A stretch of DNA of 34,515 nt, from IMG/VR virus record IMGVR_UViG_2667527976_000007; one strand, 5' to 3'. The translations under genes and the position numbers were made by a program. The notes under the pieces were generated by a model that saw only the letters and a list, made by a program, of their open reading frames with translations, was not told where the DNA came from and did no database searches. Below, piece by piece: positions 586 to 13,057 of the stretch (positions are counted from its first letter, which is position 1; every line of letters begins with the position of its first letter). Source of the stretch: a virus (taxonomy: Duplodnaviria > Heunggongvirae > Uroviricota > Caudoviricetes).

Positions 586-586
586 T

Positions 587-664
<78 letters not shown>

Positions 665-673
665 TTGCAGATA

Positions 674-1063
674 TTACTCTTTTTTCTCCGTATCTGCATC
701 GGGTTCATCAGCAAATAGCTTGCCCTGCATCCGATCCAGTTCTTCTTTTCTTACCCGCTTAACCACGCTGTAGACCCACTGAAGCGAAACACCAAATTTG
801 CGGGCCAGTTCGTGGTGGTTGCGTCCGTTAAACTCCCTGAAGATTTCCCGGTCGCGCTGACTGACCTTCCATACCATGCCCATCGGGAAATAAACGTTTT
901 GCCCGCCCCAGACCTGCATCATTCGGTTCGCGACGGCCTGACCAATCTGGTCGGCAACTTCGGGCTCAATATCAATAATCTCGCGAACGGTCTCAGAGGT
1001 ATGCTGTGCCAGTTCCACCAGGAGTTCCGGCCCCTTACTTCGAAACTGATTCAGGTCGCTCAT
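674..1063 (-). CDS. Mor/C-family transcriptional activator (middle/late gene activator)
   Basis: 129 aa, size and C-terminal HTH-like region typical of Mu Mor/C proteins; last gene of the early operon, directly after the GemA-like gene as in Mu. Confidence 0.65.
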   Translation of the reverse strand: MSDLNQFRSKGPELLVELAQHTSETVREIIDIEPEVADQIGQAVANRMMQVWGGQNVYFPMGMVWKVSQRDREIFREFNGRNHHELARKFGVSLQWVYSVVKRVRKEELDRMQGKLFADEPDADTEKKE

Positions 1064-1484
1064 GTTTGACTCCCGCAGCTCTGCGCTGCCACTTCTTCAG
1101 TTTCTCAATAACACTGCTTGCCTGTTCAGTACTGAGCCAGCGCAGGGCGCTGATGCCCGTTTCCCGCTTGATCCACCTCGCTAATGCATTTTCTGAACGG
1201 TCACGAACAATGCCGGCAGCAGCCATTTCAAGCCATAGCGCACGAATTTTCCTGGACTGCGGATGGTTATCAAGCGGTAAACCGGAGCTGGCTTTTCTGG
1301 CTGGTTTAACGCGAAAGCCTTTCTTTTTCATGGATTCCAGCACGCAGTTTAGTTGTGTGGTATCCATTCCTTTGGTTGAGGCTTTACCGGTCAGCCCCTG
1401 TAACATCTGGCGGTAGGTGTCTTCATCCATACCCAGTTCATTACGGGCAATATGGATAAGCTGTATCAGGCGTTTTTTCTGCAT
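1035..1484 (-). CDS. GemA-like protein (Mu gp16 family)
   Basis: 149 aa; position immediately upstream of the Mor-like gene; sequence character consistent with Mu GemA/DUF1018 family. Confidence 0.6.
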   Translation of the reverse strand: MQKKRLIQLIHIARNELGMDEDTYRQMLQGLTGKASTKGMDTTQLNCVLESMKKKGFRVKPARKASSGLPLDNHPQSRKIRALWLEMAAAGIVRDRSENALARWIKRETGISALRWLSTEQASSVIEKLKKWQRRAAGVKHERPESVSK

Positions 1485-1485
1485 A

Positions 1486-1692
1486 TCATCTCCTTTTTTT
1501 CAGTCTGTCGGCAACAATGTCGGTTGCAGCTGGCAGGGTGACTGGCCAGAACAACATGACGGCGGTCATGTACAGGATGTAATGCGCGGTGTCGTAGTGC
1601 CTGCCATAGCCCAGGGAACGATGAAGTCTTGCGCTGCATGATCCTGCGTACATATACCAGAAAAGAAAACAGACAATGGTTTCAGTAGTCAT
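1486..1692 (-). CDS. small membrane protein (2 predicted TM helices)
   Basis: Internal ATG at 1692 of ORF 1486..1848 gives a 68-aa protein 'MTTETIVCFLFWYMYAG...' with two hydrophobic helices; start chosen to fit the operon, uncertain. Confidence 0.4.
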   Translation of the reverse strand: MTTETIVCFLFWYMYAGSCSARLHRSLGYGRHYDTAHYILYMTAVMLFWPVTLPAATDIVADRLKKRR

Positions 1693-1912
1693 TCTGAATA
1701 CCTCCCCATTCGATATGAATATTACGGGCAGCAATGACAGGGTCGTTATTCCACCATGCACCTGACATGTATTTTTCAACCTGTTCGCGTCCGGCAATAA
1801 CACCAATTGTGATCCCCGGCCTGACGTTCTTAAAAAAGGCGCGGGCAAAAAGGTATCTGGCAGATATTCGGCAGGCTTTTAATTTCCGGCTTTTACCTGA
1901 TAGCGTAATCAT
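1682..1912 (-). CDS. hypothetical early protein (76 aa)
   Basis: ORF whose start overlaps the stop of the upstream DUF2786-like gene (coupled arrangement); no recognisable domain. Confidence 0.35.
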   Translation of the reverse strand: MITLSGKSRKLKACRISARYLFARAFFKNVRPGITIGVIAGREQVEKYMSGAWWNNDPVIAARNIHIEWGGIQNDY

Positions 1913-2628
1913 CTGGCCTCCAGTTTCTGTTGTTCCTGCCCACTGACCGGGCGGTGCAGTCTGACGTTCTGCCCTTCACGAAACCCCGCATAGCGCGAGG
2001 CGTCGCCATTGCGGCTTCTTCCCGGTTTACGCGCCCTGGTGGTTTGCGTCTGCGGGTATTTATGTTCCAGCCACTGCTGCATCAGTTCACGCTCATCATC
2101 GGTCAGGGCAAAGGACTGTATTTCACTGATAACGGCCAGCACCCAGCCTTCGGCAAACTGGTCTCCACGGCTGGTGCGGGTGGCGGTTTTTATTCTTTTG
2201 TTCTGTGCACTGATATACTGCTGACGCGCCTTTTTCAGCTGACGGGCCAGCACTTCCCAGGTGTATGCAGCCAGTGCCGCACGTTCCCGGTTGCCGTAGA
2301 ACCCCACAGACGGATGCGTGCCGGGGTGAATGATGGAGTTAACACCAAATACCTCGCGGATGATGTTCATCAGGCCCAGCATGTAGCGCGGTGGACGGAG
2401 ACTGCCTGTCGGCCAGTAGTGACTGATGGTTTCATCAATATCACTCATAGCAATGTCGGAATGTGTGATGCCGTGAACATCCATCAGTTTACGGGCTCGG
2501 CGCAGTGCCAGAGCGGCCTCGTGCGGGTTGCCGGATGCGGCCAGCGCCAGCAACTTTTTCAGTTTCTCAATGTGTTTATTCTGGTCTGTCATTGTTCTGT
2601 ATCTCCGGTATTTTTCTGCCGTTTCCAT
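1909..2628 (-). CDS. DUF2786-like phage early protein
   Basis: 239 aa; N-terminal 'KLLALAASGNPHEAALALRRARKLM' block is characteristic of the DUF2786 family common in phage early regions. Confidence 0.55.
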   Translation of the reverse strand: METAEKYRRYRTMTDQNKHIEKLKKLLALAASGNPHEAALALRRARKLMDVHGITHSDIAMSDIDETISHYWPTGSLRPPRYMLGLMNIIREVFGVNSIIHPGTHPSVGFYGNRERAALAAYTWEVLARQLKKARQQYISAQNKRIKTATRTSRGDQFAEGWVLAVISEIQSFALTDDERELMQQWLEHKYPQTQTTRARKPGRSRNGDASRYAGFREGQNVRLHRPVSGQEQQKLEAR

Positions 2629-2804
2629 GCCCGGACAGCGTCGGACAGCTCTTTCAGGCTGTATGCTGCTTTAAGCTTTTCCCATAACCACTGTGTTGTT
2701 ATGTGCATCAGCAGGGCAGCCAGGGCTGCCCCCGCACTGAGGCATGTCGCCAGGCCAGTAAGAATCAGTGTCCATGCGGTGATTTCCCTGAGTATGTCAG
2801 CCAT
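2589..2804 (-). CDS. small hydrophobic protein (71 aa)
   Basis: ORF with one strongly hydrophobic central segment; sits in the early operon in the same orientation. Confidence 0.4.
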   Translation of the reverse strand: MADILREITAWTLILTGLATCLSAGAALAALLMHITTQWLWEKLKAAYSLKELSDAVRAWKRQKNTGDTEQ

Positions 2805-2818
2805 TGAATGCCTCCCGG

Positions 2819-3115
2819 TTACTCGTTCGTGTAAATCACGCCCAGTCGTGCAGCCAGACGTTCCAGTTTTTTCTGTTTGTGGAAGTCAATCAGCCGGTCC
2901 ATCCCCTGAAGGCGCAGTTGCTCTGTCATGATTTCCACGTCTGCCAGCTCTGCCGCGAGGTCACTTTCGCTGCCCTGTCCGTTCAGGTTGCGGGCGGCAC
3001 TGGCCGCCAGTTCAGCGGCCTCTTCTGCCAGTTTCAGGGCCTGTGCGTCCGGCCCGAAACGCTGCAGGGCCAGACGGTAGAGGGCGGTGCGGGTGAGTTC
3101 GGTGTTTCGTGTCAT
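2819..3115 (-). CDS. hypothetical early protein (98 aa)
   Basis: ORF in operon orientation with tight spacing to neighbours; alpha-helical, Ala/Leu-rich; no recognisable domain. Confidence 0.45.
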   Translation of the reverse strand: MTRNTELTRTALYRLALQRFGPDAQALKLAEEAAELAASAARNLNGQGSESDLAAELADVEIMTEQLRLQGMDRLIDFHKQKKLERLAARLGVIYTNE

Positions 3116-3124
3116 GCCGCGCCC

Positions 3125-3397
3125 TCAGTGCTTCCGGCTGACGGTGATGTGCAGGCCGCCTTCTGCAGTGGTTTCCATCCGGTACGGCACCTCATGCTCT
3201 GCCGTGTGGGTGAGTGTGTTCATCAGTACCTGCAGGGCAGCCTCCTTTCCGTTGGTCGCCACAATGGCCTGTGTGGCCATGCTGATTAGCGCCGTCAGGA
3301 CGTGCTTCACATCGGTGAGGTCGCGGCATTCACACTCGTTGACATAGTGTTCAACAAGAGTTCGGGTGCGCTGTCGTGCTTCCTGTGGGGTAATCAT
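3125..3397 (-). CDS. hypothetical early protein (90 aa)
   Basis: ORF in operon orientation; its start overlaps the stop of the upstream zinc-ribbon ORF. Confidence 0.45.
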   Translation of the reverse strand: MITPQEARQRTRTLVEHYVNECECRDLTDVKHVLTALISMATQAIVATNGKEAALQVLMNTLTHTAEHEVPYRMETTAEGGLHITVSRKH

Positions 3398-3588
3398 TGC
3401 GCGTCCTCCCTGTCAGGGCGGGAGAATTCCATGACGGGCACGTCCGCCGAAAAATGCTGGCTGCAGTACGGGCAGACCAGGGTGACACGTACTGCAGGTA
3501 TGTGATACTTACCGGACATCACGGCGATGGCGCTGTGAAAACGCAGGGCTGTTATATCCCTCTCGCACTGAATACATTTAAATATCAT
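3394..3588 (-). CDS. small zinc-ribbon protein (two CxxC pairs)
   Basis: 64 aa with 'CIQC' and 'CPYC' motifs; RBS-like GAGGAG upstream on the minus strand. Confidence 0.5.
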   Translation of the reverse strand: MIFKCIQCERDITALRFHSAIAVMSGKYHIPAVRVTLVCPYCSQHFSADVPVMEFSRPDREDAQ

Positions 3589-3685
3589 AATTTAATTCTC
3601 CTCTGTTTCCGGCGTGCAGAAGCCCGCGGCGCTGACGCCGGAATAAAAAAGAAAATGTTTTTATTAAATAATTAACGTGGTGTGT

Positions 3686-4216
3686 TTACTGCACATCCTG
3701 CTCAAAAGGAATTATTGAAAAATCCTCAATATCACTTTTTATGGTAATACCGGGAATATTTTTCACAGCCTCTTTTTCATTCAGAATGGCATCTTTATTT
3801 ATTTCCTCCTTTACACGAATAAAGCGCTCAAGCCCCAGACGTCTCAGCAGTTCAATGACATTATCCGCCCCGCGAATGCTGACTGACGGCGGACGGTTTC
3901 GCCACTGCACCTCGCCGGTGGTGAGGTTAGCGAACTTCACCTTCCCGTTGCCGGTCAGTTCATCACGGTGCGCCTCACACCATGTCTGGATACCGGACTG
4001 CAGTTCGGCCATGCGTTTTTTCAGGCTCTCGGTGAGCGGGGCATAACGTGCAGTGATGTCGCCAATGGTGTCATTCATTTCTGTTTCAGCCCTGACCAGT
4101 TCACGTTGCGCGTCACCAAGCAGTCTGATTCCCTCAATGACCTCTTCGCGTGTCCCCGGCACCCAGAGTGCTGCTGCGGCTTTGATACGTTTTGCCCCTT
4201 TTGTACTTTTTGCCAT
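3686..4216 (-). CDS. gam: Gam-like host-nuclease inhibitor (Mu Gam family)
   Basis: 176 aa; 'MAK...KRIKAAAA...EMND.I..IT...AP....L...W...HRDELT..GKVKFANLTTGEVQWR.RPPSVSIRG.D.V.E.L.RLGL.RFIR.K.EINK.AIL.E......GI..KS.IEDFSIIPFEQ' closely parallels Mu Gam as I recall it; AGGAGG RBS upstream. Confidence 0.85.
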   Translation of the reverse strand: MAKSTKGAKRIKAAAALWVPGTREEVIEGIRLLGDAQRELVRAETEMNDTIGDITARYAPLTESLKKRMAELQSGIQTWCEAHRDELTGNGKVKFANLTTGEVQWRNRPPSVSIRGADNVIELLRRLGLERFIRVKEEINKDAILNEKEAVKNIPGITIKSDIEDFSIIPFEQDVQ

Positions 4217-4243
4217 ATTTTATGACTCCTCCTGTTGTGCTGA

Positions 4244-4513
4244 TTACCACAAAGATTCCGGCCACACGACGCGACAGCCGTGCAGTTCGAAAACGCCCTG
4301 ACGGAAATGTCCCCTGTGGTCATGACCGGTATACAGATAACAGGCCTTTCCCTGCTCAAGCATGCGCATGCAATGCGCACTCCGGGAAACGCGGATGACA
4401 GGTTTGTTACCCCTGATGGTGATGCTTTGTACATCCGTGTTCGTCGCCTTAAGCGCCATAATGGCTGACTGCACTTTGCTGATTTGCTGGTTGATACCTG
4501 TGGTGGATTTCAT
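4244..4513 (-). CDS. hypothetical early protein (Kil position, 89 aa)
   Basis: ORF immediately downstream of the MuB-like gene, where Mu carries kil; no sequence-level assignment possible. Confidence 0.4.
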   Translation of the reverse strand: MKSTTGINQQISKVQSAIMALKATNTDVQSITIRGNKPVIRVSRSAHCMRMLEQGKACYLYTGHDHRGHFRQGVFELHGCRVVWPESLW

Positions 4514-4515
4514 TA

Positions 4516-5682
4516 TTAAACCCCTTTGACAACGTCAGCGTTGACCTGTGGAACCCCGATTTCAGCGGCCAGATTCATGGCGGCTATTACCAGGTTACTG
4601 ACGGCCAGCGGATACAGCAGGCTGACCATATTTTTACGATGACTTCCCGGATTGCTCAGGCGGGCACGTATGGCATCCACTGCGCTGGCGTCCATAATGT
4701 CCGTCAGTTGTTTACCGGCCCGTTGCAGTTTGAACGTCAGAAACTCTTCAAGGTTATTGTCCAGAGGCAGAAGTTCGACCACCTCACAGCGCTGAACGAC
4801 TTCACGGACTTCCATATTGCGTTCAGACAGTTTTGTCGCCAGTTCCGGCTGGCCAATCAGCACGATGGACAGCAGTTTTTTGAAACCGGACTCCAGCTCA
4901 AAAAAGCGTTTGAGGTGTTTCAGTGTCGGAATGGGCAGACTGTGGGCCTCCTCAATCACCAGAACGTGGCTGAACCCCGCCTGGCTGCTGTCTTTCAGGA
5001 CGCGATGCAACTGGCGAAAGCGGGCGTCCTGACTGCGTCTGATGCTTTCCAGTGGTGCGATGGTACTGATAATGGCTTCGGCAATCGCTGCTGCCTTCAG
5101 GGTTTTCCCTTTCACATCGTTGTCTTCCATAGCGATGATGTATGGCTCGATAACAATTACCGGCGCATTCTCGCGGTTGATACGTTCAGTCAGGTCGCGG
5201 CGCAGCGTGGATTTACCCGCACCGGACTCACCGATGACGGCCATAAACCCACCATGACGGGCTGTCTGGTACAACGCCTCACGCACGTAGCGAATATCCG
5301 GGGTGGTGAACACATCATCAGAACCCTGCATGGCTTCGTCGGCGAACGGGTCACGGAAAAGACCAAACGCTTTTTTGGTTGCTGGAAATAACACCTGTTT
5401 TTTGAGTAACATATTCTCTTCCTCACTGAGGCTCGTTTTATCTGTGGTACCCGCTGTACGGGGCGTGGCCGCGCCCTGTACAGCATCAAAACTCTTCGTT
5501 GTATCAATCCCCTGACTTTCCAGCCAGGACGCAAGACGCCGGCGCACTTCTCCGGGGCTGGTGCGGGGCCACGCGTTATGATTCACAATCTGGGCCAGCG
5601 TGGCCTCAGAAACATCGACAGCTCTCGCCACCACCGCCTGTGGAATACGGGCCTCTTTCAGTTGCTGCTTCAGTACCAGCAT
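4516..5682 (-). CDS. MuB-like transposition ATPase (AAA+)
   Basis: Walker A 'GESGAGKST'; N-terminal HTH-like region; directly downstream of the transposase. Start set to the ATG at 5682, which follows GGAGGG 5 nt after the transposase TGA, rather than the upstream in-frame ATG at 5721. Confidence 0.8.
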   Translation of the reverse strand: MLVLKQQLKEARIPQAVVARAVDVSEATLAQIVNHNAWPRTSPGEVRRRLASWLESQGIDTTKSFDAVQGAATPRTAGTTDKTSLSEEENMLLKKQVLFPATKKAFGLFRDPFADEAMQGSDDVFTTPDIRYVREALYQTARHGGFMAVIGESGAGKSTLRRDLTERINRENAPVIVIEPYIIAMEDNDVKGKTLKAAAIAEAIISTIAPLESIRRSQDARFRQLHRVLKDSSQAGFSHVLVIEEAHSLPIPTLKHLKRFFELESGFKKLLSIVLIGQPELATKLSERNMEVREVVQRCEVVELLPLDNNLEEFLTFKLQRAGKQLTDIMDASAVDAIRARLSNPGSHRKNMVSLLYPLAVSNLVIAAMNLAAEIGVPQVNADVVKGV

Positions 5683-5692
5683 GTTTCCCTCC

Positions 5693-7462
5693 TCAGTTGC
5701 CGTTAACAATGCTGATAACACTGCTGCGGGCCGGTGTGGTCAGCGTGGCCATGACTTCATCCAGTGCGGCTTCCGGTACGCCGTCCGGGTACTGTGCCGT
5801 TAACTGGCGGTAATGTTCCGGCGTCCAGGTAAGGCCGTCGGCGCTGAACTTATCGCGCAGGGCTTTCGCGGCCTCCACATGAGTCATGGGACGTTGTTCA
5901 GTGCGCGGCCCGCGTACGTCAGAGGCCTGACCACGCTTCGGCATATAGGCCGGAAGTGTGGTGTCGTCGATATGTTTATACGGGTCAAGCCGCCCGCCGA
6001 ACGGCAGCGCCTTCGCCTTGCGTGCGGCGGCTGCATCTGCGGCGTTGTCTGTACCGGTAACCAGCGCTTCGGTTTCTTTTGCCGCCATCTGTGCCGGGGT
6101 TTCCGGCAGGGCTTTGTAACTTTCGCCAAATACCGCCGCGCCTTCAGCAAAGCCAAACTCGTTCTTTCTGACCTCTTCGACCAGGAAGAACGTCTCGTGG
6201 CCGTCCTCACCGGTCAGAACCACCTGTGCCACATCGCTGCGCCATGGGTTACGGGTAATCATCAGTTTTTCACCAACCAGTACGCCCGGTACCGTTGATA
6301 CGTCAAATTCAGTGCCCCGGAACGAGACACGAAGTTTTGGCGTGACTTTGCGGAGTTCTGGTGCCGCCACAGCCAGTTCACGACATACCTCAACGGAAGG
6401 CGCTTTTTTCAGCTGCTCAGCAGTAATCTTCAGCCAGATATCCGTGCGGGTTTTACCGTGGCGGCTGTGAACAGCCGTGGCGTTAAAGTGGCTGCGCCAT
6501 TTCGCGGCCAGCGCGTTGAGTTCTTCCAGACTGTGAACCGGCCGGAACTTCAGACCCGGCTCCAGCTTGCGTTCGATAATGTCACGCGCCTTTTCCACCT
6601 GTCCGGTGGCGCGGGCGTTATGCGGCTTGTGCGCTATCAGGTCAATGCCCAGTGAGCGGCACATGTTTTTCGTCATACCCGCGGTGTTTGCCGAACCGGG
6701 GTCGAGATAGAGTATTTTTGGCACGCCGTGCAGCACGTCTGCGCCGCCACGCTCCTGCATGGCGTTGATAAGCACAGAACACAGGTTCTCACCGGATTCC
6801 GCACCCGTCACATACTCAACGTAAATCCAGCCGCTGGCATGGTCGGTAATCTCGTAACTCCACACGCGGTCACTGGCGATACGGGCAAGGTTAGCGGGTT
6901 TGTTCTTGTAGAACTTCGCGCTGTCCATCACCTGCAGCCCTTTGTGTCCATTGCTCAGGTAGTAAAGCGTGCAGAGCGAGGCATCAATCTGCCAGACATG
7001 ATTGGGATGCAGACTGGCCACTTCGGTATGCGGCGCAGGAGCATCCAGTTGTTCCGGGTGCAGGCCATAGTTACGCAGGGCACGACTGATGGCATCTTCG
7101 GACAACGGGAAAAACTCACCGGTGGTTTCATCTGTTCTGCCTGCGGAGATAAAGCCGTTAGCCCGCAGGGTTTCCACTGCATCCGCGATGGAATAGAGAC
7201 GCTTACCGTTCTTGCGGGTGGCCTCACGCAGTGTGGCAGATATCAGCGCGGCTTCGTCGCGGGTCAGGGCGCTGCGTCCGGCATCAGCGCGTTTTTTGCG
7301 TTTATCAGTCACAGAGACCTCCTTCAGCCTGCGCAGCAGAGTGGCGCGGGACATGCCAAGTTCAGCACAGGCAGCGTCGTATATTGCACCGCGTTTACCA
7401 TGCCCCGCGTCACGTGCCGCGCGGGCGACATAAACCAGTCGTTCAGTCAGGGCAGCATTCAT
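5693..7462 (-). CDS. MuA-like DDE transposase
   Basis: 589 aa; N-terminal DNA-binding region then an rve/DDE-type core; gene order ner-(x)-A-B as in Mu. Confidence 0.8.
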   Translation of the reverse strand: MNAALTERLVYVARAARDAGHGKRGAIYDAACAELGMSRATLLRRLKEVSVTDKRKKRADAGRSALTRDEAALISATLREATRKNGKRLYSIADAVETLRANGFISAGRTDETTGEFFPLSEDAISRALRNYGLHPEQLDAPAPHTEVASLHPNHVWQIDASLCTLYYLSNGHKGLQVMDSAKFYKNKPANLARIASDRVWSYEITDHASGWIYVEYVTGAESGENLCSVLINAMQERGGADVLHGVPKILYLDPGSANTAGMTKNMCRSLGIDLIAHKPHNARATGQVEKARDIIERKLEPGLKFRPVHSLEELNALAAKWRSHFNATAVHSRHGKTRTDIWLKITAEQLKKAPSVEVCRELAVAAPELRKVTPKLRVSFRGTEFDVSTVPGVLVGEKLMITRNPWRSDVAQVVLTGEDGHETFFLVEEVRKNEFGFAEGAAVFGESYKALPETPAQMAAKETEALVTGTDNAADAAAARKAKALPFGGRLDPYKHIDDTTLPAYMPKRGQASDVRGPRTEQRPMTHVEAAKALRDKFSADGLTWTPEHYRQLTAQYPDGVPEAALDEVMATLTTPARSSVISIVNGN

Positions 7463-7465
7463 TGG

Positions 7466-8377
7466 TTATGCCTCCAGCCCGTTAATCTGTGGCGTCGGCT
7501 CAGTCAGCCATGAAGGCGCGGCATTGCCTGTTGGCTCATCCGGCAGGTCAAATGTGGAGCGCAGGCTACGCGCTGTGCTTTCCAGTTGACAGACCAGGCC
7601 TGCCATGAAGTCTCTGGGGGTATCAATCATGTTTTCAGCACAATATGCGCACAGCGTCTCAAAAGCGCTGGACAGTCGAACGGCGATAGCAGATTCCGCC
7701 TCAACCGCTAATGCTGTCACTTCCGCCCGCAGCTTCTTAACCTCTTCATCAGGCTCAGGCGGCTGAATACGGGATTTCTTCTCCAGTCTGGTGGAGAGTG
7801 AGTCTATTTTTTCATTTTTGTCAGCGAGTACGCGCTGTTGTGCTGCGTTGGTTTCGCGCGCTTCGCGCAGGGCCTGACGCAATTCACGTACTGACATGCG
7901 ATCAACGTCGTCAAGCGTCAGGCCGGCAACTGTGCCGCCGTCGGCCAGTTCGGCAAGCTCTTCGTCGTCTTCTGTCATTAATTCGAAAAGTTTGGCTTTT
8001 CCCAAATGTGCCAACGTTGGCACATTTGGTTTCAGCGCCGGGGATAAGTATTTTGTCGATGCTTGCATCATTCTCACAGATGTCCGGTATGCCAGCCCCA
8101 ACTCACTTTCAAGAATCTTTATAAACTCCCCGTGTGGTTCATTTTCCTTAAGGATTATCAGCCGCTTACCTGCCTCCAGCATGGCCTCAGCGCTCTGTGC
8201 CATATAAAAGCGTGCCTCATGGACAACACGATCGCGCTCATAGGGCAGACCATCGCCGAACTGTTGCATGATTTCCATGCGATGCTGTGTCATGGCGTTT
8301 AGACTGACATTGAGATCATCCGACAGCGGTACCTCGACGTTCAGTTCAGTGCTAACCGGTGATTTGGTGCGTCCCAT
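7466..8377 (-). CDS. DUF3102-like early protein
   Basis: 303 aa; between the regulators and the transposase, a position where Mu-like prophages often carry a DUF3102 protein; assigned by family resemblance only. Confidence 0.45.
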   Translation of the reverse strand: MGRTKSPVSTELNVEVPLSDDLNVSLNAMTQHRMEIMQQFGDGLPYERDRVVHEARFYMAQSAEAMLEAGKRLIILKENEPHGEFIKILESELGLAYRTSVRMMQASTKYLSPALKPNVPTLAHLGKAKLFELMTEDDEELAELADGGTVAGLTLDDVDRMSVRELRQALREARETNAAQQRVLADKNEKIDSLSTRLEKKSRIQPPEPDEEVKKLRAEVTALAVEAESAIAVRLSSAFETLCAYCAENMIDTPRDFMAGLVCQLESTARSLRSTFDLPDEPTGNAAPSWLTEPTPQINGLEA

Positions 8378-8387
8378 TGATTACTCC

Positions 8388-8696
8388 TTACAAACGACTA
8401 CCTGAAATAACACGTTGGTTGATTTCGTTAATGCGATCCTGTGCACGTGCCATCTCGTTACTGTGGGCCATGGCGATCTGCAGCAACTGGATGCCTGGTG
8501 CGAAACGCCCGTTTTCTAGTTTCAGAGCCAACCCTTCTTCAATGAGCGTGTTAAGTGCCCGGTTGATGTTTGCCGGTGATTCGTGCAGTGCAACCGCTAG
8601 TTCCCCGTTAGAAACACCGTTCAAAGCGTGGCCACGTAAGGCCTTAAGAACGCGCAAAATACGGGTACCTGAGCTTGATGTATTTGGTTTATTCAT
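8388..8696 (-). CDS. small HTH DNA-binding protein (102 aa)
   Basis: Winged-helix-like segment 'GVSNGELAVALHESPANINRALNTLIEEGLA'; second gene of the early operon. Confidence 0.5.
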   Translation of the reverse strand: MNKPNTSSSGTRILRVLKALRGHALNGVSNGELAVALHESPANINRALNTLIEEGLALKLENGRFAPGIQLLQIAMAHSNEMARAQDRINEINQRVISGSRL

Positions 8697-8917
8697 GACG
8701 CCTCCTTAAGGATACCGGGGGTAACTTCTTTACCTATTGCAACCGATAGATCTCGCAAAATCCGATAAGTCAAACGACCGCGAGGTAGTTCACTTTTACC
8801 AGCCCAGCGACTGACTGCCTGGGTGACTGTTCGTGGTTCATAGCCCGCGTTAAGCGCGAACTGGCGCAAGCTACTGCCTCGTTCAACCAGCCGTGCCCGA
8901 ACTTGTTGTTTGTTCAT
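8693..8917 (-). CDS. Ner-like DNA-binding regulator
   Basis: 74 aa from the ATG at 8917; '...LRQFALNAGYEPRTVTQAVSR.W.....L' resembles the Mu Ner/Nlp family; first gene of the leftward early operon, divergent from the XRE gene. Confidence 0.65.
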   Translation of the reverse strand: MNKQQVRARLVERGSSLRQFALNAGYEPRTVTQAVSRWAGKSELPRGRLTYRILRDLSVAIGKEVTPGILKEAS

Positions 8918-9005
8918 ATGCACCGTGTTCCTGTTAGGTTATGATGTACTCTATTGGGTCTATTGTACACACCCAAATGAGTGTGTCAAATTGAGATATG
9001 TTCAA
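8918..9005. promoter_or_regulatory. divergent promoter/operator (switch) region between Ner-like and XRE-type genes
   Basis: 88-bp AT-rich spacer between divergent start codons; contains inverted repeat ACACAC(8967-8972)/GTGTGT(8981-8986) with an 8-bp spacer and a TGTAC direct repeat. Confidence 0.5.
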
Positions 9006-9413
9006 ATGAGTACAAAAGAGAGATTGCGTGAAGTGATGGATGCTAATGGCATGACAATAAAGGCATTATCTAACTTATCAAAAATTCCATATCGCTCACT
9101 TCAAAACTATTTGCGTGGAGAGAGAGAACCAAACGCAGAGGCTCTTGTTGCGCTAAGCACCCATTTGGGTGTATCGATCGATTGGCTACTTACCGGTAAA
9201 GAACATATTCCATCTAAAGAAATTGTTGCTGTACCAACACAACATCAATTCAGCCCGTCAGACCTTAAAATGCTTGAACTTCTAAACCAGTTAGATCCTG
9301 AGGTTCGGCGAGATCTCATGCGAGGCGCTGAAGAAAAACAGCGTGTGATTGAGATGGAAAAACAACTGAAGGAATTATCCGCAACGATTGAGCGGTTAAA
9401 AAATGTGGGTTAA
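9006..9413 (+). CDS. XRE-family HTH regulator (candidate prophage repressor or regulator of the adjacent cargo operon)
   Basis: Internal ATG at 9006 of ORF 8910..9413; HTH_XRE-like N-terminus '...MTIKALSNLSKIPYRSLQNYLRGEREPNAEALVALSTHLGVSIDWLL' and a C-terminal coiled-coil-like tail; AT-rich like the downstream operon. Confidence 0.65.
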   Translation: MSTKERLREVMDANGMTIKALSNLSKIPYRSLQNYLRGEREPNAEALVALSTHLGVSIDWLLTGKEHIPSKEIVAVPTQHQFSPSDLKMLELLNQLDPEVRRDLMRGAEEKQRVIEMEKQLKELSATIERLKNVG

Positions 9414-9483
9414 TGTGTTCCTAACGAGAACATATAGCAGAAATTATTTGCCATTAAGCAATAAAAAATAAGGTGGATAGCTA

Positions 9484-10491
9484 ATGTCTGAGCAGACCAT
9501 TGAAGTTAAACACGTTGTAGTTCACATTTTAGACAAACAACAAAATGGAGACGCTTCTGAGAGATTGAGTCCTGAAGAAGGTCTAGTTACTGAAGCCTCC
9601 CAGCGCCTTATAAACGATATTTGTGCAAAATATGCAGGACGCACAGGTAAAGGTTATGGCTATTTTGAAGGCGATACGGATAACTATCCTATGGAACGAA
9701 TGGCTGGGGACTTTCTCGAAGGTGTTGATGATTTCTACCAAAGTTCCTGCCGAATGATGCATCACCTGACGGAACGTTCTCAGCGAGAAAACATGGCTAC
9801 TGGTGGTTATGTTCTTTTTGCAAATATCGTGATAGGACACAATGAACACCTGTTGATAGCTATTGTAAGCGCTACCATTGGATCCACTGTCACAGATGAT
9901 TTTAACATCCAAGATAGTACCTATCTTGATATTGCTAAGCTGCGTATGGCTGGGCGCATTGACTTAACCGCGTGGGAAAGTGGCGCAGAGCGCTATATCA
10001 GTTTTCTTAAGGGGCAAGGTAATGTTTCAAACTATTTTAAACAGTTCCTCGGCTGTAATGATGTCTTAATCGCCAAACGAGAGTCTGAAAAGTTACGTGA
10101 CGTTTTAAAAGCATTTGCGGCAGAGAAAGGACTTGACGGCGCTGAAAAAGATGCATTTCTTAAGAGTGCGTTTGAACACTTACATGCACTAAGTAAGGCT
10201 GGTGAACCACTTAGTCTTGAAACCCTTGTTAATGCCATTTGGCCCCAGGCTCCCGAGGAGTTATCTGGTAAACTTGCTGCTGAAGAGTTGGAGTTATCGG
10301 ATGGCTTCGTTCCTGATGGTCGAGTCATTCGGGCTCTGGTATCTTTTAAAGGCAAGTCTAAATATTGGGAACTTAAGTTTGACCGGGAAGGGAAAACTGA
10401 AGGCTATATTGATTATGATCCGGAAACAAATATTATCACCCTACGTAATGTACCTGAAGAATTTAGGGAAATGTGGATGACTGAGGTTTAA
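9484..10491 (+). CDS. YejK/NdpA-like nucleoid-associated protein (NA37 family) homologue
   Basis: 335 aa, the same length as E. coli YejK; blocks 'YLDIAKLRMAGRIDLTAWESGAERYISFLKG' and C-terminal 'YDPETNIITLRNVPEEF' parallel YejK blocks as I recall them; AAGGTGG RBS upstream; markedly AT-rich. Confidence 0.6.
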   Translation: MSEQTIEVKHVVVHILDKQQNGDASERLSPEEGLVTEASQRLINDICAKYAGRTGKGYGYFEGDTDNYPMERMAGDFLEGVDDFYQSSCRMMHHLTERSQRENMATGGYVLFANIVIGHNEHLLIAIVSATIGSTVTDDFNIQDSTYLDIAKLRMAGRIDLTAWESGAERYISFLKGQGNVSNYFKQFLGCNDVLIAKRESEKLRDVLKAFAAEKGLDGAEKDAFLKSAFEHLHALSKAGEPLSLETLVNAIWPQAPEELSGKLAAEELELSDGFVPDGRVIRALVSFKGKSKYWELKFDREGKTEGYIDYDPETNIITLRNVPEEFREMWMTEV

Positions 10492-10493
10492 TC

Positions 10494-11699
10494 GTGGCGA
10501 TTTCATTTGAGATGCTGACAGATCTGTATCGTCGTATGGAATTCCAAGAGGGGTTTCGTGTCGGTTCGCTGTTGCTCTTAGATCAGTCCGATTGTGATCT
10601 GGTTGATACTTTGCTTGATGATCCTCGTGAATATGGTCTTTCTATTGATACAGGCACTATCGCTCCAGGTAACACGATCATCCTACGTGTGACGTCACCA
10701 CGGAGTGGACTGGGACTTGTGTTTTCCACCCATGAAAAATTGCTAAATGCTCCAAAGCATCAGTGCCTTGAGCCAGCTAATTACTTCATCCTAGAAACAA
10801 AGTTTCGTAATGATGATGAAGATATCCCCGTTTTCATCAGCAACTACCGGAAGATTCTCGAGTTCGTTAACCTGCTAAAAGAGGCCGCGGCCTACTTTGA
10901 TAACTCAACTTGTCAGTTAGTTTTTCTGAAAAAAGAAGTTATCAAGCTATTACCGCACTTCGCTGCAGAAAATGTACAAAATTTGCAAAGAGAGTATCTT
11001 GATAACCTTATAGCTTGTTTCAATGATGATACCCATAAGGATCAGAAGCTAGATATTCTGATTGAAAGTATCCAAGCAGTTAGTGATGGAATTGATTCAC
11101 CTCTAGTATTCGCTTATTTACTGGACAATATTCAGCGTCTGCATGAAAAGTTTCTGAAAGGGTATCGTATCTACTCTTCTGGATTCTCTTATGACAAAGT
11201 AATGGATCAACTGCGTGCTGCAAAAGTCGAAGAAATGGGTAAAATCCACAAAGCGTTTTCAGATATCCAGAACCATATACTTGGCATTCCTGTTGCCTCT
11301 GTTATCGTAGCTACCCAATTCAAAGTGGCTACGAAATGGTCAGGCCAAGGGATAACAAACACAATAATTCTTCTGGGATGCATTTTTGCTGCAACGTTAA
11401 TCTGGCTGGCACTTTCGAACCAGATGCAATCTATAAAGGCCTTAGGCGAAGAAATTGAATACAAAGAAAAACAGATTAATAAGGAATATTCCTTCATTAA
11501 AGATGACGTGGCTGGTGTATTTAGCAGTATTTCTGCGCGACTAGACACGCAGAAACGTACGTTCTGGATTATACGTGGTGTTCTAGTTATGGGAATTATT
11601 ACCGCTATCACTGTTTATTTTTGGTACACAAAACCAGCCCTTGACTTCATGCAGTACTTGATTCACTGCATGAAGTCTTACTATTCGGTCAAAAGTTGA
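10494..11699 (+). CDS. uncharacterised protein with soluble N-terminal domain and two C-terminal TM helices
   Basis: GTG start 2 nt after the upstream TAA (translational coupling); predicted TM helices at about residues 287-307 and 357-377; no recognisable catalytic motif; AT-rich. Confidence 0.55.
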   Translation: MAISFEMLTDLYRRMEFQEGFRVGSLLLLDQSDCDLVDTLLDDPREYGLSIDTGTIAPGNTIILRVTSPRSGLGLVFSTHEKLLNAPKHQCLEPANYFILETKFRNDDEDIPVFISNYRKILEFVNLLKEAAAYFDNSTCQLVFLKKEVIKLLPHFAAENVQNLQREYLDNLIACFNDDTHKDQKLDILIESIQAVSDGIDSPLVFAYLLDNIQRLHEKFLKGYRIYSSGFSYDKVMDQLRAAKVEEMGKIHKAFSDIQNHILGIPVASVIVATQFKVATKWSGQGITNTIILLGCIFAATLIWLALSNQMQSIKALGEEIEYKEKQINKEYSFIKDDVAGVFSSISARLDTQKRTFWIIRGVLVMGIITAITVYFWYTKPALDFMQYLIHCMKSYYSVKS

Positions 11700-12459
11700 G
11701 GATAATGAGTTCCTTCTTGCGACTGGATTTGCCAGTGATCTTGAGGTTGTAGCTGATATCAACCGACTGAATATTTAGACCGTTGAATGCCTGCCGCATT
11801 TCCGGGATATCGTTCACCGATATAATCATCTTCCCTTTGATCCTGCGTGCTAAATCTGCCATATGATCATAATTTTCTAGTCCGAACTCCACACCATAAC
11901 CTTCCGTTCCCCAGTATGGAGGGTCACAGTAGAACAACGTATGCGGGCGATCATATCGTTCTATGCACTGTTGCCAGTCCATGTGTTCTATGACCGTTCT
12001 GGAAAGCCGCAGGTGTGCCGCTGACAGTTCTTCTTCAATACGCAGCAGGTTGAAGCGTGGCGGGGATATGGTGGAGGTACCAAAGCTGTGCTCCGCCACC
12101 TTGCCTCCAAACGCCTGCTTCTGAAGGTAGTAGAACCGTGCTGCACGCTGGATATCCGTCAGTGTTTCTTCCGGGGTGATCTGCAGCCATTTGTAGATCT
12201 GCCGGCTGACCAGCGCCCATTTGAACTGGCGTACAAATTCTTCCAGATGATGTTTTACCACCCGATACAGGTTCACCAGTTCACCGTTGATATCATTAAT
12301 GACTTCGATCTTGCCGGGTACCTTAAGAAAATAGAGCGCTGCTGCCCCACAAAACGGCTCCACATAACATTCATGCGCCGGAAACAGCGGCAGGATGTGT
12401 TTTGCAAGGCGGCGTTTGCCACCAATCCATGGAACGATGGGTAATGTCTGCATTTTCAT
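11689..12459 (-). CDS. DNA N6-adenine methyltransferase (Dam/D12-class family)
   Basis: 256 aa; N-terminal 'VEPFCGAAALYF' (SAM-binding motif I) and catalytic 'DPPY' motif; convergent with the cargo operon, overlapping its end by 11 nt. Confidence 0.8.
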   Translation of the reverse strand: MKMQTLPIVPWIGGKRRLAKHILPLFPAHECYVEPFCGAAALYFLKVPGKIEVINDINGELVNLYRVVKHHLEEFVRQFKWALVSRQIYKWLQITPEETLTDIQRAARFYYLQKQAFGGKVAEHSFGTSTISPPRFNLLRIEEELSAAHLRLSRTVIEHMDWQQCIERYDRPHTLFYCDPPYWGTEGYGVEFGLENYDHMADLARRIKGKMIISVNDIPEMRQAFNGLNIQSVDISYNLKITGKSSRKKELIILNF

Positions 12460-12564
12460 AATCTGTAAGCCTTTTACAATTATAAAAAATATGGCAGGCT
12501 AGTCTGGTCTCGCGAGACTGACTGAACCTCGGTCGGCTCACAGCGCATTCCTGTGGGGCGATGG

Positions 12565-12602
12565 CCAGCCCGGTGTTCGGGTACCGGGCTGGTCGTTCTT
12601 TC
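12565..12602 (+). terminator. putative intrinsic terminator/insulator hairpin
   Basis: 9-bp stem CCAGCCCGG / CCGGGCTGG (12565-12573 and 12584-12592) with a 10-nt loop, followed by T-rich TCGTTCTTTC. Confidence 0.35.
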
Positions 12603-12706
12603 AAAGTCATCATGCAGTGCACGTTTACATCTTCACTATTAACGCTGTTTAAAATCCGTATCCCGCCACATTTGTGATGCTGTCTCCACCAAACGAGGAG
12701 ACACAC

Positions 12707-13057
12707 ATGAAAAACCTGAAAAAATTCATTCCCCCTGTTAAAAAACCTCGCCTCAGCGGCTGGCTGCTGACCTCAGTGCTGTTGCTGGGCATCATCGCTC
12801 TGGTCTCGCCACAGCAGTTGCCTGTTGTGATCTACAAGCTGGCACTTATCACGCTGGCAGCAGTGCTGGGTTACTGGCTTGACCGTTCGCTCTTCCCCAA
12901 AGCCCGTCCCGGTCAGTACCTGAAACATGACGACAGGCTGATGGCTGAAGGGCGTTTCCCGGTACAGACCGGCCTTCACCTGGTGTTTTCTGCTGCGTTA
13001 ATCCGCCGTGCACTGATTGTTGCAGCGGTCTGCCTGGCTGTGGCAACAGGACTGTGA
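12707..13057 (+). CDS. putative holin-like membrane protein
   Basis: ATG at 12707 preceded by AGGAGA; 117 aa with 2-3 hydrophobic helices; immediately upstream of the endolysin, with TGA/ATG coupling. Confidence 0.5.
   Translation: MKNLKKFIPPVKKPRLSGWLLTSVLLLGIIALVSPQQLPVVIYKLALITLAAVLGYWLDRSLFPKARPGQYLKHDDRLMAEGRFPVQTGLHLVFSAALIRRALIVAAVCLAVATGL

What the first reader, a model, noticed from the sequence alone, without database searches (positions are those of the whole stretch)
674..12706. Early module reads toward the adjacent prophage end, opposite to the canonical Mu layout
In Mu the repressor gene faces the left end and ner-A-B-...-mor read away from it toward the late genes. Here the entire ner-to-mor early operon (8917 down to 674) reads toward the adiC junction, while the XRE gene, cargo operon and all late genes read the other way. 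This implies an inversion of the early module or a distinct lineage of transposable phage, so late activation must act across the cargo and Dam region.
Basis: inference. Interest (0 to 1): 0.5.

Follow-up and report, generated by a model that had tools for sequence, protein, structure and literature searches.

The report
Standard BcepMu/B3-type transposable prophage layout
The leftward-reading early genes are real, but this is the normal, published layout of BcepMu-like and B3-like transposable phages, which work perfectly well this way, so the finding is ordinary.

Summary
Sixteen intact early genes, from the Ner-like gene (8917) to mor (674), lie on the minus strand and read toward the prophage left end, which I place at 504 inside adiC. 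The CI/XRE repressor, a two-gene cargo and all late genes are on the plus strand; dam is on the minus strand.

The layout is not unusual. The prophage is colinear, gene by gene and strand by strand, with Burkholderia phage BcepMu. In all 39 phage records listed in both tblastn tables, the transposase is antiparallel to the large terminase; these include plaque-forming BcepMu and the B3-like Pseudomonas phages. Published work describes this two-arm organisation. [quoted passage not shown]

Three full-length E. coli copies have TG...CA ends and 6-bp target duplications, so both arms transpose as one unit and the element is not a composite.

"Late activation across cargo and Dam" is not a constraint, because Mor is a diffusible protein. 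I infer that the single Mor/C homologue acts at four late intergenic sites that share a motif conserved with BcepMu.

Verdict: already known, low interest. Side notes: the cargo has the architecture of a type II PANGU defence system, and the left terminus in this window is an odd phage/adiC mosaic.

The parts
1..503 (+). Host adiC (arginine/agmatine antiporter), interrupted by the prophage insertion
   Evidence: Window 250-503 is 254/254 identical to E. coli SK1144 adiC; the Salmonella adiC alignment ends at 503.
504..600 (.). Prophage left end. It starts with the terminal TG (TGATTAGAC...) and carries repeats resembling the right-end and BcepMu terminal repeats (GAGAT(G)AAATGAC 521-533, GAGATATTTATGG 545-557), plus ATGGGAAGA at 554-562 and 574-582. 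Positions 513-526 deviate from the consensus end.
   Evidence: Six independent insertions share TGATTAGACTTGAGATAAATGACAGGG directly after unrelated flanks. BcepMu ends are similar: TGAAGAGAGGTGAGATATTT / TGAAGCGCGGCGCGATATTT.
621..666 (-). Terminator-like hairpin just downstream of mor, before the terminal repeats (inferred end of the early transcript)
   Evidence: RNA fold: centroid hairpin -24 kcal/mol, whole-fragment z = -2.81; inverted repeat I1.
674..1063 (-). mor: the only Mor/C-family activator, last gene of the leftward early operon
   Evidence: Pfam Mor E 1.3e-43; 54% identical to BcepMu gp01, 30% to Mu Mor, 37% to Mu C; no second homologue in the window, in the full-length copy or in BcepMu.
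1035..1484 (-). gemA homologue
   Evidence: Pfam GemA E 8e-41; hits BcepMu gp02 and Mu gp16.
1486..3588 (-). Seven small early genes (the counterpart of Mu's semi-essential region), including a DUF2786/DUF7168 protein at 1909-2592
   Evidence: Intact ORFs; Pfam; no counterpart in BcepMu or Mu, so this is a variable region.
3686..4216 (-). gam (host-nuclease inhibitor)
   Evidence: Pfam Phage_Mu_Gam E 1e-40; 61.5% identical to Mu Gam, in opposite orientation relative to the late genes.
4516..5682 (-). Transposition ATPase (TnpB / ExeA-like, AAA_22)
   Evidence: Pfam AAA_22; PHROG 296 'DNA transposition protein' E 2e-93; 59% identical to BcepMu gp08.
5693..7462 (-). DDE transposase of the B3/Tn552 (rve) type, not MuA
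   Evidence: Pfam rve; PHROG 310 transposase E 8e-148; 68.5% identical to BcepMu gp09, about 57% to B3-like phage transposases; no tblastn hit to Mu at E<=1e-3.
7466..8917 (-). Promoter-proximal early genes: DUF3102 (7466-8377), winged-HTH regulator (8388-8696), Ner-like small HTH (8693-8917)
   Evidence: Pfam and PHROGs; homologous to BcepMu gp10 and gp12 on the same strand.
8918..9005 (.). Lysis-lysogeny switch. The leftward early promoter is TTGACA-16-TACAAT (-35 at 8989-8984, -10 at 8967-8962), overlapped by three copies of an operator-like motif CAAATGAGT(ACA).
   Evidence: This is the best promoter match in 400-13200, 11 of 12 positions. Function is inferred.
9006..9413 (+). CI/XRE-type repressor, reading toward the late genes
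   Evidence: Pfam HTH_3 and Phage_CI_repr; PHROG repressor families; same position and strand as BcepMu gp17 and Fc02 repc.
9484..11699 (+). Low-GC (0.40-0.43) two-gene cargo in the variable slot after the repressor: an NA37/YejK-like nucleoid-associated protein plus a 401-aa protein with an acidic N-terminal domain and C-terminal transmembrane segments (type II PANGU-like architecture)
   Evidence: Composition; Pfam NA37 E 1e-80; YejK structure 9be2 E 7e-30; TM segments and pI; module borders 9434/11707 against KP12; gene pair conserved in unrelated contexts; the preprint describing PANGU.
11689..12459 (-). Dam-type N6-adenine methyltransferase, antiparallel to the late genes
   Evidence: Pfam MethyltransfD12 E 7e-28; same relative orientation in PhiKM and KP12.
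12559..12602 (+). Strong terminator-like hairpin ahead of the first late promoter (inferred insulator against rightward read-through from the repressor/cargo transcript)
   Evidence: RNA fold -31.5 kcal/mol, z = -4.46, followed by UCGUUCUUUC; perfect 10-nt inverted repeat.
12640..12654 (+). Late-promoter-associated motif 1 (TAACGCTGTTTAAAA), 52 nt upstream of the holin gene
   Evidence: Motif search. The stretch from about 12634 to the holin ATG is conserved in PhiKM and KP12, while sequence further upstream is not. The same motif sits upstream of the BcepMu holin.
12707..19952 (+). First late cluster: holin, SLT endolysin, spanin-region genes, TerS, TerL, portal, Mu F-like and Mu G-like proteins
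   Evidence: Colinear with BcepMu gp21-gp31 on the same strand; Pfam holin; RefSeq annotation.
19996..20109 (+). Terminator-like hairpin (19996-20033) followed by late-promoter motif 2 (TAAAGCAGATTAAAA, 20095-20109), upstream of the protease/scaffold gene. This corresponds in position to Mu's late promoter P_I.
   Evidence: Fold -20.5 kcal/mol, z = -2.71; zero-mismatch motif; hairpin and motif both conserved in BcepMu and KP12.
20167..25983 (+). Second late cluster: protease/scaffold, major head protein, head-tail joining proteins, tail sheath, tail tube
   Evidence: Colinear with BcepMu gp32-gp40.
25990..26023 (+). Terminator hairpin GGGGCTCCGGCCCC plus a T-run, overlapping dyad-like late motif 3 (TTAATCTCCTTTAATAT; it scores on the minus strand as TAAAGGAGATTAAGA)
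   Evidence: Fold -12.8 kcal/mol, z = -2.97; motif; conserved in KP12 and partly in BcepMu.
26081..34162 (+). P2-like tail and baseplate genes, with motif 4 at 32099-32113 in the gap between the V-like and W-like genes. The window ends before the tail-fibre/invertase region and the right end.
   Evidence: Colinear with BcepMu gp41-gp51. Motif 4 occupies the same gap as the BcepMu site at 30772-30786. The right end appears only in full-length copies.

Best explanation
The window holds the left 34 kb of a complete-looking transposable prophage of the BcepMu type (B3-type organisation), inserted in adiC. Its two divergently transcribed arms are the native, conserved architecture of this lineage, not a rearrangement. 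The proposed mechanism is as follows; the gene content and order are shown here, the regulatory steps are inferred from homologues. In the lysogen, the CI/XRE repressor (9006-9413) is transcribed rightward together with the cargo genes downstream of it. A strong hairpin at 12559-12602 stops that transcript before the lysis genes. On derepression, the near-consensus promoter at 8989-8962 drives one leftward operon of about 8.3 kb: the Ner-like protein, a wHTH regulator, DUF3102, the rve transposase, the AAA+ partner, Gam, small genes, GemA and finally Mor. That transcript ends at a hairpin (621-666) just inside the left terminal repeats. Because mor is the promoter-distal gene, as in Mu and Fc02, Mor is the last product encoded on the operon, so its synthesis is expected to come latest. 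Being a diffusible protein, it activates late transcription in trans at four late intergenic sites (12640, 20095, about 26009, 32099). These sites share a TAAAGCnGATTAAAA-like element, and three of them follow terminator-like hairpins. Only one Mor/C-family gene is present, so the cascade is probably two-step (early to late) rather than Mu's three-step cascade. The element moves as a unit by B3/Tn552-type transposition, with TG...CA ends and a 6-bp target duplication.
For: Colinearity and identical strandedness with BcepMu for 33 of 48 proteins on both arms, versus opposite relative orientation of Gam, GemA and Mor in Mu. Transposase antiparallel to TerL in 39 of 39 phage records listed in both tables, spanning BcepMu-like phages of Burkholderia and Ralstonia, close relatives from E. 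coli and Klebsiella, and B3-like Pseudomonas phages. The same map in Fc02, KP12 and PhiKM. Literature: the BcepMu two-cluster organisation with lysogeny control at the interface (PMC2771037); the 'B3 genome organization', the 6-bp duplication and TG-CA ends (PMC8705779); Fc02 strand-specific RNA-seq showing exactly this programme (PMC9936078); BcepMu forms plaques (PMC2628397). Three full-length E. coli copies flanked by 6-bp duplications GTCACC, ACGTGA and GCTCGC. All 48 ORFs intact. Early promoter match of 11/12. A single Mor/C homologue. The motif occurs in BcepMu 3 times against 0.00 expected; in the window all four matches with 2 or fewer mismatches fall in late intergenic gaps. Hairpins.
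Against: No transcript data exist for this prophage. The promoters, terminators, operator repeats and the Mor-motif link are sequence inferences, and I could not place transcription start sites. Two of the four motif copies score on the minus strand (the element is dyad-like), so it could be something other than a promoter element. The right end is outside the window. The left terminus in this window deviates from the consensus of six other copies (7 extra nt). If that is real, this particular copy may not transpose. The repressor's own promoter was not identified convincingly.
Confidence: 0.93

Rival explanations
1. A recent inversion of the immunity/early module occurred in this particular prophage, which would otherwise have a Mu-type layout.
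For: Relative to Mu, the c-ner-...-mor block is exactly inverted between the left end and the late genes.
Against: The transposase and ATPase are not MuA/MuB (no tblastn hit at E<=1e-3). The same orientation is found in BcepMu, the other BcepMu-like phages, KP12, PhiKM and all listed B3-like phages: 39 of 39. Mor lies next to the left terminal repeats in every independent E. coli copy. No inverted-repeat scars flank the block. Any inversion is ancient and lineage-defining.
Confidence: 0.02
2. The region is a composite of two elements: a leftward transposon-like module abutting an unrelated rightward myovirus prophage.
For: GC content drops to 0.40-0.45 at 8500-12000, between the two arms. The tail module is P2-like while the packaging and head genes are Mu-like.
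Against: The GC dip coincides with the cargo module (borders 9434/11707), not with a junction between elements. Three full-length copies at different chromosomal sites are bounded by TG...CA ends and perfect 6-bp duplications that enclose both arms. Both arms are colinear with BcepMu. The left and right ends carry related terminal inverted repeats.
Confidence: 0.02
3. The layout is standard, but this copy is a locked, non-transposing prophage because its left terminus is damaged: 7 extra nt between the terminal TG and the first terminal repeat.
For: Window 504-533 reads TGATTAGACCTGGTTCCGAGATGAAATGAC, against TGATTAGACTTGAGATAAATGAC in six independent copies. The deviating bases match the displaced adiC sequence in register, 19 of 26.
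Against: A mosaic that follows the register of the uninterrupted target gene is what consensus polishing of a mixed read population would produce (cells with and without the insertion). All 48 genes are intact and the rest of the end is reported 100.0% identical (one 1-nt gap) to the other copies.
Confidence: 0.2

Closest known systems
Burkholderia phage BcepMu and relatives (genus Bcepmuvirus: BcepMu, phiE255; related E. coli, Klebsiella and Salmonella prophages such as PhiKM and KP12 clone 2)
   Same: Same gene order and strands on both arms. Mor and GemA sit at the left end, the ATPase, transposase, DUF3102 and wHTH genes read leftward, and the CI-type repressor reads rightward. Then follow an accessory slot, holin/SLT endolysin, Mu-like packaging and head genes, and a P2-like tail. 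Both have TG...CA ends with similar terminal repeats, a single Mor/C homologue and the shared late-gap motif. PhiKM is 95.7% identical over 71% of window 1-13000 and is filed under Bcepmuvirus.
   Different: Only 31-76% protein identity to BcepMu. The small early genes, the Ner-like gene, the repressor and the cargo have no BcepMu counterpart. Gam is Mu-like (61.5%) and absent from BcepMu by tblastn. A dam gene is present. Full-length E. coli copies carry a Gin-like invertase and an invertible tail-fibre segment, which BcepMu lacks.
Pseudomonas phage B3 and B3-like phages (Beetrevirus: Fc02, JBD25, JD18 and others)
   Same: The same transposase family (about 57% identity) and the same two-arm 'B3 organisation'. 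mor is the last gene of the leftward early operon at the left end. The repressor plus an accessory gene read rightward, and late clusters start with the holin. The family has a 6-bp target duplication. Fc02 RNA-seq demonstrates the temporal programme.
   Different: B3-like phages are siphoviruses with different tail genes, and their accessory genes and immunity regions differ. Fc02 has extra overlapping exclusion genes upstream of repc that were not seen here.
Escherichia phage Mu (Muvirus)
   Same: Replicative-transposition lifestyle. Homologous Gam (61.5%), GemA, Mor, TerL (49%), portal, F and G proteins. mor is promoter-distal in the early operon. Late genes are activated by a Mor/C-family protein. 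A late promoter lies in the G-I gap. E. coli copies of this prophage have a Gin-type invertible tail-fibre segment.
   Different: Mu uses MuA/MuB transposition proteins and makes a 5-bp duplication. Its c gene faces the left end and its early operon is co-oriented with the late genes. It has two activators (Mor, then C) in a three-step cascade, Mu-type tails, and mom/com at the right end.
Type II PANGU anti-phage system (Pag2A NAP sensor plus Pag2B membrane effector; bioRxiv 10.64898/2026.04.06.716658). This applies to the cargo only.
   Same: A bicistronic operon. A YejK/NA37-like protein is followed within 3 nt by a protein with an acidic N-terminal domain (pI 4.6-5.0) and a C-terminal transmembrane region. 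The pair is conserved across unrelated mobile contexts.
   Different: Sequence identity to the tested Pag2A/Pag2B could not be checked, and no functional data exist for this copy. Here the module sits in a prophage moron slot and is presumably co-transcribed with the repressor.

Membership tests
BcepMu-like / B3-type transposable phages | DDE transposase of the B3/Tn552 (rve) family with an adjacent AAA+ partner, rather than MuA/MuB | tested here: met
   Pfam rve and AAA_22; 68.5% and 59% identity to BcepMu gp09 and gp08; no tblastn hit in Mu; about 57% identity to B3-like transposases.
BcepMu-like / B3-type transposable phages | [quoted passage not shown] | tested here: met
   This matches the descriptions in PMC2771037 and PMC8705779.
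BcepMu-like / B3-type transposable phages | TG...CA termini and a 6-bp target-site duplication at variable insertion sites | tested here: met
   Left TG at window 504. Six different insertion sites share the same end. Three full-length copies have CA right ends and 6-bp duplications. The right end of this particular copy lies outside the window.
BcepMu-like / B3-type transposable phages | Late region made of holin/SLT endolysin, Mu-like TerS/TerL/portal/F/G and a P2-like contractile tail, colinear with BcepMu (the myovirus branch) | tested here: met
   27 of 28 late proteins hit BcepMu in the same order and on the same strand, at 31-76% identity.
Genus Bcepmuvirus in the strict ICTV sense | Genome-wide nucleotide similarity to the type species at genus level (about 70% is the usual criterion, from my own knowledge) | tested here: inconclusive
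   blastn against BcepMu finds only patches of 65-76% identity, covering roughly a third of the window. NCBI nevertheless files the 95.7%-identical PhiKM under Bcepmuvirus.
Muvirus (Mu, D108) | MuA/MuB transposition proteins | tested here: not met
   No tblastn hit of the window's transposase or ATPase to Mu at E<=1e-3.
Muvirus (Mu, D108) | Repressor facing the left end, with the early operon co-oriented with the late genes | tested here: not met
   Mu map compared with the window map.
Muvirus (Mu, D108) | Two paralogous activators, Mor (middle) and C (late) | tested here: not met
   Only one Mor/C-family locus in the window, in the full-length copy and in BcepMu (tblastn run to E<=10; no other locus scored below E=0.07).
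Type II PANGU (cargo only) | A YejK/NA37-like NAP gene in a two-gene operon with a downstream effector that has an acidic N-terminal (DNA-mimic) domain and a C-terminal TM region | tested here: met
   Pfam NA37 E 1e-80; YejK 9be2 E 7e-30; TM segments at 262-311 and 356-378; N-terminal pI 4.6-5.0; the pairing is conserved in three distant contexts. These are architectural criteria only.
Type II PANGU (cargo only) | Sequence homology to the experimentally tested Pag2A/Pag2B, and anti-phage activity | not testable with these tools
   The preprint text held here gives no sequences or accession numbers. PADLOC 2023 has no model for it; it gave only a weak KwaA hit, E 8e-5.

The most novel reading that the evidence does not exclude
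BcepMu-type phages may run a two-step cascade rather than Mu's three-step one. In this reading the lone Mor/C-family protein, encoded last on the leftward early operon at the very end of the genome, directly switches on four separate late transcription units. Each unit would be marked by a conserved dyad-like TAAAGCnGATTAAAA element, and three of the four follow a terminator-like hairpin. The slot between repressor and late genes would serve as a lysogen-expressed cargo bay, here holding a PANGU-type NAP-sensor defence system. I found no experimental test of this for the BcepMu branch.
Probability: 0.4. Interest if true: 0.3.

Novelty: already known. Interest (0 to 1): 0.1.

Why it matters
It matters little as a discovery. 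The divergent two-arm layout has been in the literature for BcepMu and B3 since the mid-2000s, and its transcription programme has been shown by RNA-seq in Fc02. The useful outcomes are practical:

1. Prophages of this kind in Enterobacteria should be annotated as BcepMu/B3-type, not as rearranged Mu.
2. The comparison yields a testable candidate late-promoter element and suggests a simpler, single-activator cascade.
3. The slot downstream of the repressor is a swap-in cargo bay. In this strain it carries what looks like a recently described NAP-sensor (PANGU type II) defence module, probably expressed in the lysogen.
4. The insertion disrupts adiC, a component of arginine-dependent acid resistance, which may affect the host phenotype.

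Tried and rejected
- The original B3 genome paper (PMC516594) is not held. My recollection that its abstract reports 'inversion of the immunity/early gene region' therefore remains memory only. I relied instead on PMC8705779, PMC2771037 and PMC9936078.
- I searched for a second Mor/C paralogue with the window Mor, Mu Mor, Mu C and BcepMu gp01. None turned up.
- I aligned the holin-upstream regions of the window, PhiKM and KP12 to find a conserved activator site at -35 to -60. Conservation stops about 15 nt upstream of the TTAACGC...TAAAAT element, so no separate upstream site could be defined. I could not decide whether the shared motif contains the -10 or is the activator site.
- The simple promoter scan found no convincing rightward promoter for the repressor in 8918-9005.
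- PADLOC gave nothing for the NA37 protein and only a weak KwaA hit for its partner. The PDB sequence search gave nothing for the 401-aa protein. I rejected Kiwa membership because there is no KwaB/DUF4868 and the gene order differs.
- I considered the conserved palindrome in the G-I gap as an analogue of Mu's strong gyrase site. It folds as a terminator-like hairpin followed by a T-run, which is the simpler reading. The gyrase-site idea was not tested.
- No genome in the complete E. coli collection has this adiC insertion: the best hits start at window 521. The right junction of this copy could therefore not be recovered.
- tRNA scan: none.

Full report
**What is in the window**

Window 1-503 is the 3' part of the host gene adiC; positions 250-503 match E. 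coli adiC at 254 of 254 positions. From 504 to the end of the window runs a prophage. A copy reported 100.0% identical (one 1-nt gap) over window 521-13000 sits at a different chromosomal site in E. coli NZ_LR883012.1. Its RefSeq gene models, transferred to the window, give 48 of 48 intact ORFs. No tRNA genes are present.

**Check of the observation**

Sixteen consecutive genes on the minus strand run from 8917 down to 674 (Pfam, PHROGs):
- a Ner-like small HTH protein (8693-8917)
- a winged-HTH regulator (8388-8696)
- a DUF3102 protein (7466-8377)
- an rve-type transposase (5693-7462)
- an AAA_22/ExeA-like transposition ATPase (4516-5682)
- a small ORF (4244-4513) and Gam (3686-4216)
- seven small ORFs (1486-3588)
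- GemA (1035-1484) and Mor (674-1063)

On the plus strand are a CI/XRE repressor (9006-9413), a two-gene cargo (9484-11699) and, from the holin at 12707, all lysis, packaging, head and tail genes. Dam (11689-12459) is on the minus strand. In Mu, by contrast, c is on the minus strand next to the left end, and ner-A-B-...-gam-...-gemA-mor-C-lys and the late genes are all on the plus strand.

**What it is**

tblastn of the 48 proteins against Burkholderia phage BcepMu gives hits for 33 of them, in the same order and on the same strands across both arms. Mor matches gp01 and GemA matches gp02 at the left end. The ATPase matches gp08, the transposase gp09 (68.5% identity), DUF3102 gp10 and the wHTH protein gp12, all on the minus strand. 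The holin through the baseplate proteins match gp21-gp51, all on the plus strand.

Against Mu, only Gam, GemA, Mor, TerL, portal, F, G and one baseplate protein match. The three early ones are in opposite orientation relative to the late genes, and the transposase and ATPase have no tblastn hit in Mu at E<=1e-3. [quoted passage not shown] Escherichia phage PhiKM, which is 95.7% identical over 71% of window 1-13000, is filed under Bcepmuvirus.

**How general the layout is**

tblastn of the transposase and of TerL against 50,697 phage records gave 39 records that appear in both result tables. In all 39 the two genes are antiparallel. These records cover BcepMu, phiE255 and other Burkholderia phages, Ralstonia YO107_2, E. 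coli PhiKM and Phi06_2974 B, Klebsiella KP12 clone 2, and the B3-like Pseudomonas phages (JBD25, JD18, Fc02, H71, H72 and others). The annotated maps of Fc02 and KP12 show the same plan in detail. Mor is the first gene at the left end, the early genes read toward that end, the repressor and an accessory gene read the other way, and the holin and late genes follow.

**What the literature says**

- Lavigne et al. 2009 (PMC2771037) state that the BcepMu genome is organised into two clusters. Genes 1-13 are on the bottom strand and include transcription regulators and the transposase, which is Tn552/IS1604-like and not MuA. Genes 17-52 are on the top strand, and the lysogeny control region lies at the interface.
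[quoted passage not shown] It notes gemA near one genome end, TG-CA ends, and a 6-bp duplication as the footprint of a B3/Tn552-family transposase.
In the lysogen only repc and the accessory gene downstream of it are transcribed, on the forward strand. [quoted passage not shown] Three forward-strand late clusters follow, the first beginning with holin and endolysin.
- BcepMu is a plaque-forming phage (PMC2628397).

**Not a composite, not a recent inversion**

Six independent insertions share the left end TGATTAGACTTGAGATAAATGACAGGG directly after unrelated flanking DNA. The sites are a lambdoid tail gene, downstream of chbG, hycH, an exonuclease pseudogene, yhfW, and the host fragment in the PhiKM record.

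Three full-length copies of 36.8-37.4 kb end in ...GCGCGGCGCATCA and are flanked by perfect 6-bp duplications: GTCACC, ACGTGA and GCTCGC. Both arms therefore transpose as one unit. The left and right ends carry related inverted terminal repeats that resemble those of BcepMu. The GC dip at 8500-12000 coincides with the cargo module and not with a junction between two elements.

**How it most likely works (inferred unless stated otherwise)**

- *Switch region.* The 88-bp region 8918-9005 contains the best sigma-70 match in the left 13 kb, TTGACA-16-TACAAT on the minus strand at 8989-8962. It is overlapped by three copies of a CAAATGAGT(ACA) operator-like motif.
- *Early operon.* The leftward operon ends in a hairpin at 621-666, about 90 nt inside the left end. 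mor is its promoter-distal gene, so Mor is the last product encoded on the operon and its synthesis is expected to come latest.
- *Single activator.* Only one Mor/C-family gene exists here, in the full-length copy and in BcepMu. It is about equally similar to Mu Mor (30%, E 8e-15) and Mu C (37%, E 2e-14). This suggests a two-step cascade.
- *Shared late motif.* A 15-nt element, TAAAGCnGATTAAAA, occurs in BcepMu upstream of the holin gene (11486), upstream of the protease gene (18813) and in the V-W gap (30772), against 0.00 matches expected by chance. In the window, the four matches with 2 or fewer mismatches lie at 12640, 20095, 26009 and 32099. Each is in a late intergenic gap at the corresponding position. 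Those gaps make up under 4% of the late region (gap lengths).
- *Terminators.* Three of the four sites follow terminator-like hairpins: 12559-12602 (-31.5 kcal/mol, z = -4.5), 19996-20033 and 25990-26005. This parallels the separately timed, terminator-bounded late clusters of Fc02.

The hairpin at 12559-12602 would stop the lysogenic repressor/cargo transcript before the lysis genes. The late promoters would then be switched on in trans by Mor. On this reading the cargo and dam genes in between pose no mechanistic problem.

**The cargo (a side finding)**

blastn against KP12 places the borders of the variable slot at 9434 and 11707. KP12 has a different 177-aa gene there, and PhiKM has replaced both the immunity genes and the cargo. 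The window's cargo has two genes:
- an NA37/YejK-family protein (Pfam E 1e-80; YejK structure 9be2 E 7e-30);
- a 401-aa protein starting 3 nt downstream, with no Pfam match, an acidic N-terminal domain of about 260 aa (pI about 5) and C-terminal transmembrane segments.

Homologues of the second protein at 33-38% identity are each immediately preceded by an NA37 gene in three distant settings: a Salmonella lambdoid prophage (between Q and the holin), a Paraburkholderia island beside an Mrr-like nuclease, and a Shewanella contig. This is the architecture of the 'type II PANGU' defence system in a 2026 preprint, which pairs the NAP sensor Pag2A with Pag2B, a protein with an N-terminal DNA-mimic domain and a C-terminal TM region. 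I could not test sequence-level membership or activity.

**An oddity at the left terminus**

Window 504-533 reads TGATTAGACCTGGTTCCGAGATGAAATGAC, whereas six other copies read TGATTAGACTTGAGATAAATGAC. The deviating bases match, in register, the adiC sequence that the insertion displaced: 19 of 26 identical, falling to 7 of 30 further in. The likeliest cause is consensus polishing over a mixed population of cells with and without the insertion. If the variant is real, it puts 7 extra nt between the cleavage site and the first terminal repeat and could immobilise this copy.

**Verdict**

But the arrangement is the documented standard of BcepMu- and B3-type transposable phages, and RNA-seq in Fc02 shows that it works as such. 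It is already known and of low interest (0.1). The residual novelty lies in untested regulatory details (a single activator and a shared late motif) and in the cargo.

Noticed in passing
window 504-533: The prophage left terminus is a mosaic. It reads TGATTAGAC + CTGGTTCCG + AGATGAAATGAC, against the consensus TGATTAGACTTGAGATAAATGAC seen in six independent copies. The odd bases match the displaced adiC sequence in register (19/26). This is probably a polishing artefact from a mixed population. If real, it adds 7 nt at the transposase-recognised end.
   Followed up: partly
window 9484-11699: The low-GC two-gene cargo (an NA37/YejK-like protein plus a 401-aa protein with an acidic N-terminal domain and C-terminal TM segments) has the architecture of the recently described type II PANGU abortive-infection system. 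The gene pair is conserved in a Salmonella lambdoid prophage (L013), a Paraburkholderia island (L015) and Shewanella (L017). PADLOC 2023 does not recognise it.
   Followed up: partly
window 12640-12654, 20095-20109, 26009-26023, 32099-32113; L004 11486-11500, 18813-18827, 30772-30786: A TAAAGCnGATTAAAA-like element recurs in the late intergenic gaps at equivalent positions in this prophage and in distantly related BcepMu (0 expected by chance in BcepMu). It is a candidate late-promoter or Mor-binding element. Two copies score on the opposite strand, so the element is dyad-like.
   Followed up: partly
window 12559-12602, 19996-20033, 25990-26005, 621-666: Strong terminator-like hairpins precede three of the four candidate late-promoter sites, and another follows mor. 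The hairpin in the G-I gap is conserved in BcepMu (L004 about 18729-18757). It lies where Mu has its strong gyrase site; that possibility was not tested.
   Followed up: partly
window 8697-11747 compared with L001 (PhiKM) and L007 (KP12): The region between the early operon and dam is a replacement hot spot. KP12 keeps the repressor but has a different 177-aa gene in place of the cargo. PhiKM has swapped the Ner-like gene, the repressor and the cargo for unrelated minus-strand genes, which amounts to a different immunity type.
   Followed up: partly
L003 34342-37886; L019 15-3462: Full-length E. coli copies end with a tail-fibre segment, inverted alternative fibre and assembly genes, and a Gin-like recombinase just inside the right end. 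This resembles the Mu G segment and is absent from BcepMu. It lies beyond the end of the window.
   Followed up: no
window 1-503: The insertion interrupts adiC, the arginine:agmatine antiporter of arginine-dependent acid resistance, so the host is likely defective in that system. The ORF ends at a TAG created 7 nt into the prophage.
   Followed up: no
L001 20200-20587; L007 record header: Database curiosities. The PhiKM record joins the right-end region to the left end through a fragment annotated as an Fe2+ ABC-transporter gene. This is presumably packaged host DNA, as expected for a transposable phage (inferred from the annotation only). 'Klebsiella phage KP12 clone KP12_2' is labelled Vequintavirinae but is a BcepMu-like element.
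   Followed up: no
window 3686-4216: Gam is 61.5% identical to Mu Gam and 84% identical at the DNA level over 100 nt to Pseudomonas phage H72 gam. BcepMu has no detectable Gam, which points to module exchange between Mu-type and BcepMu/B3-type phages within the early arm.
   Followed up: no
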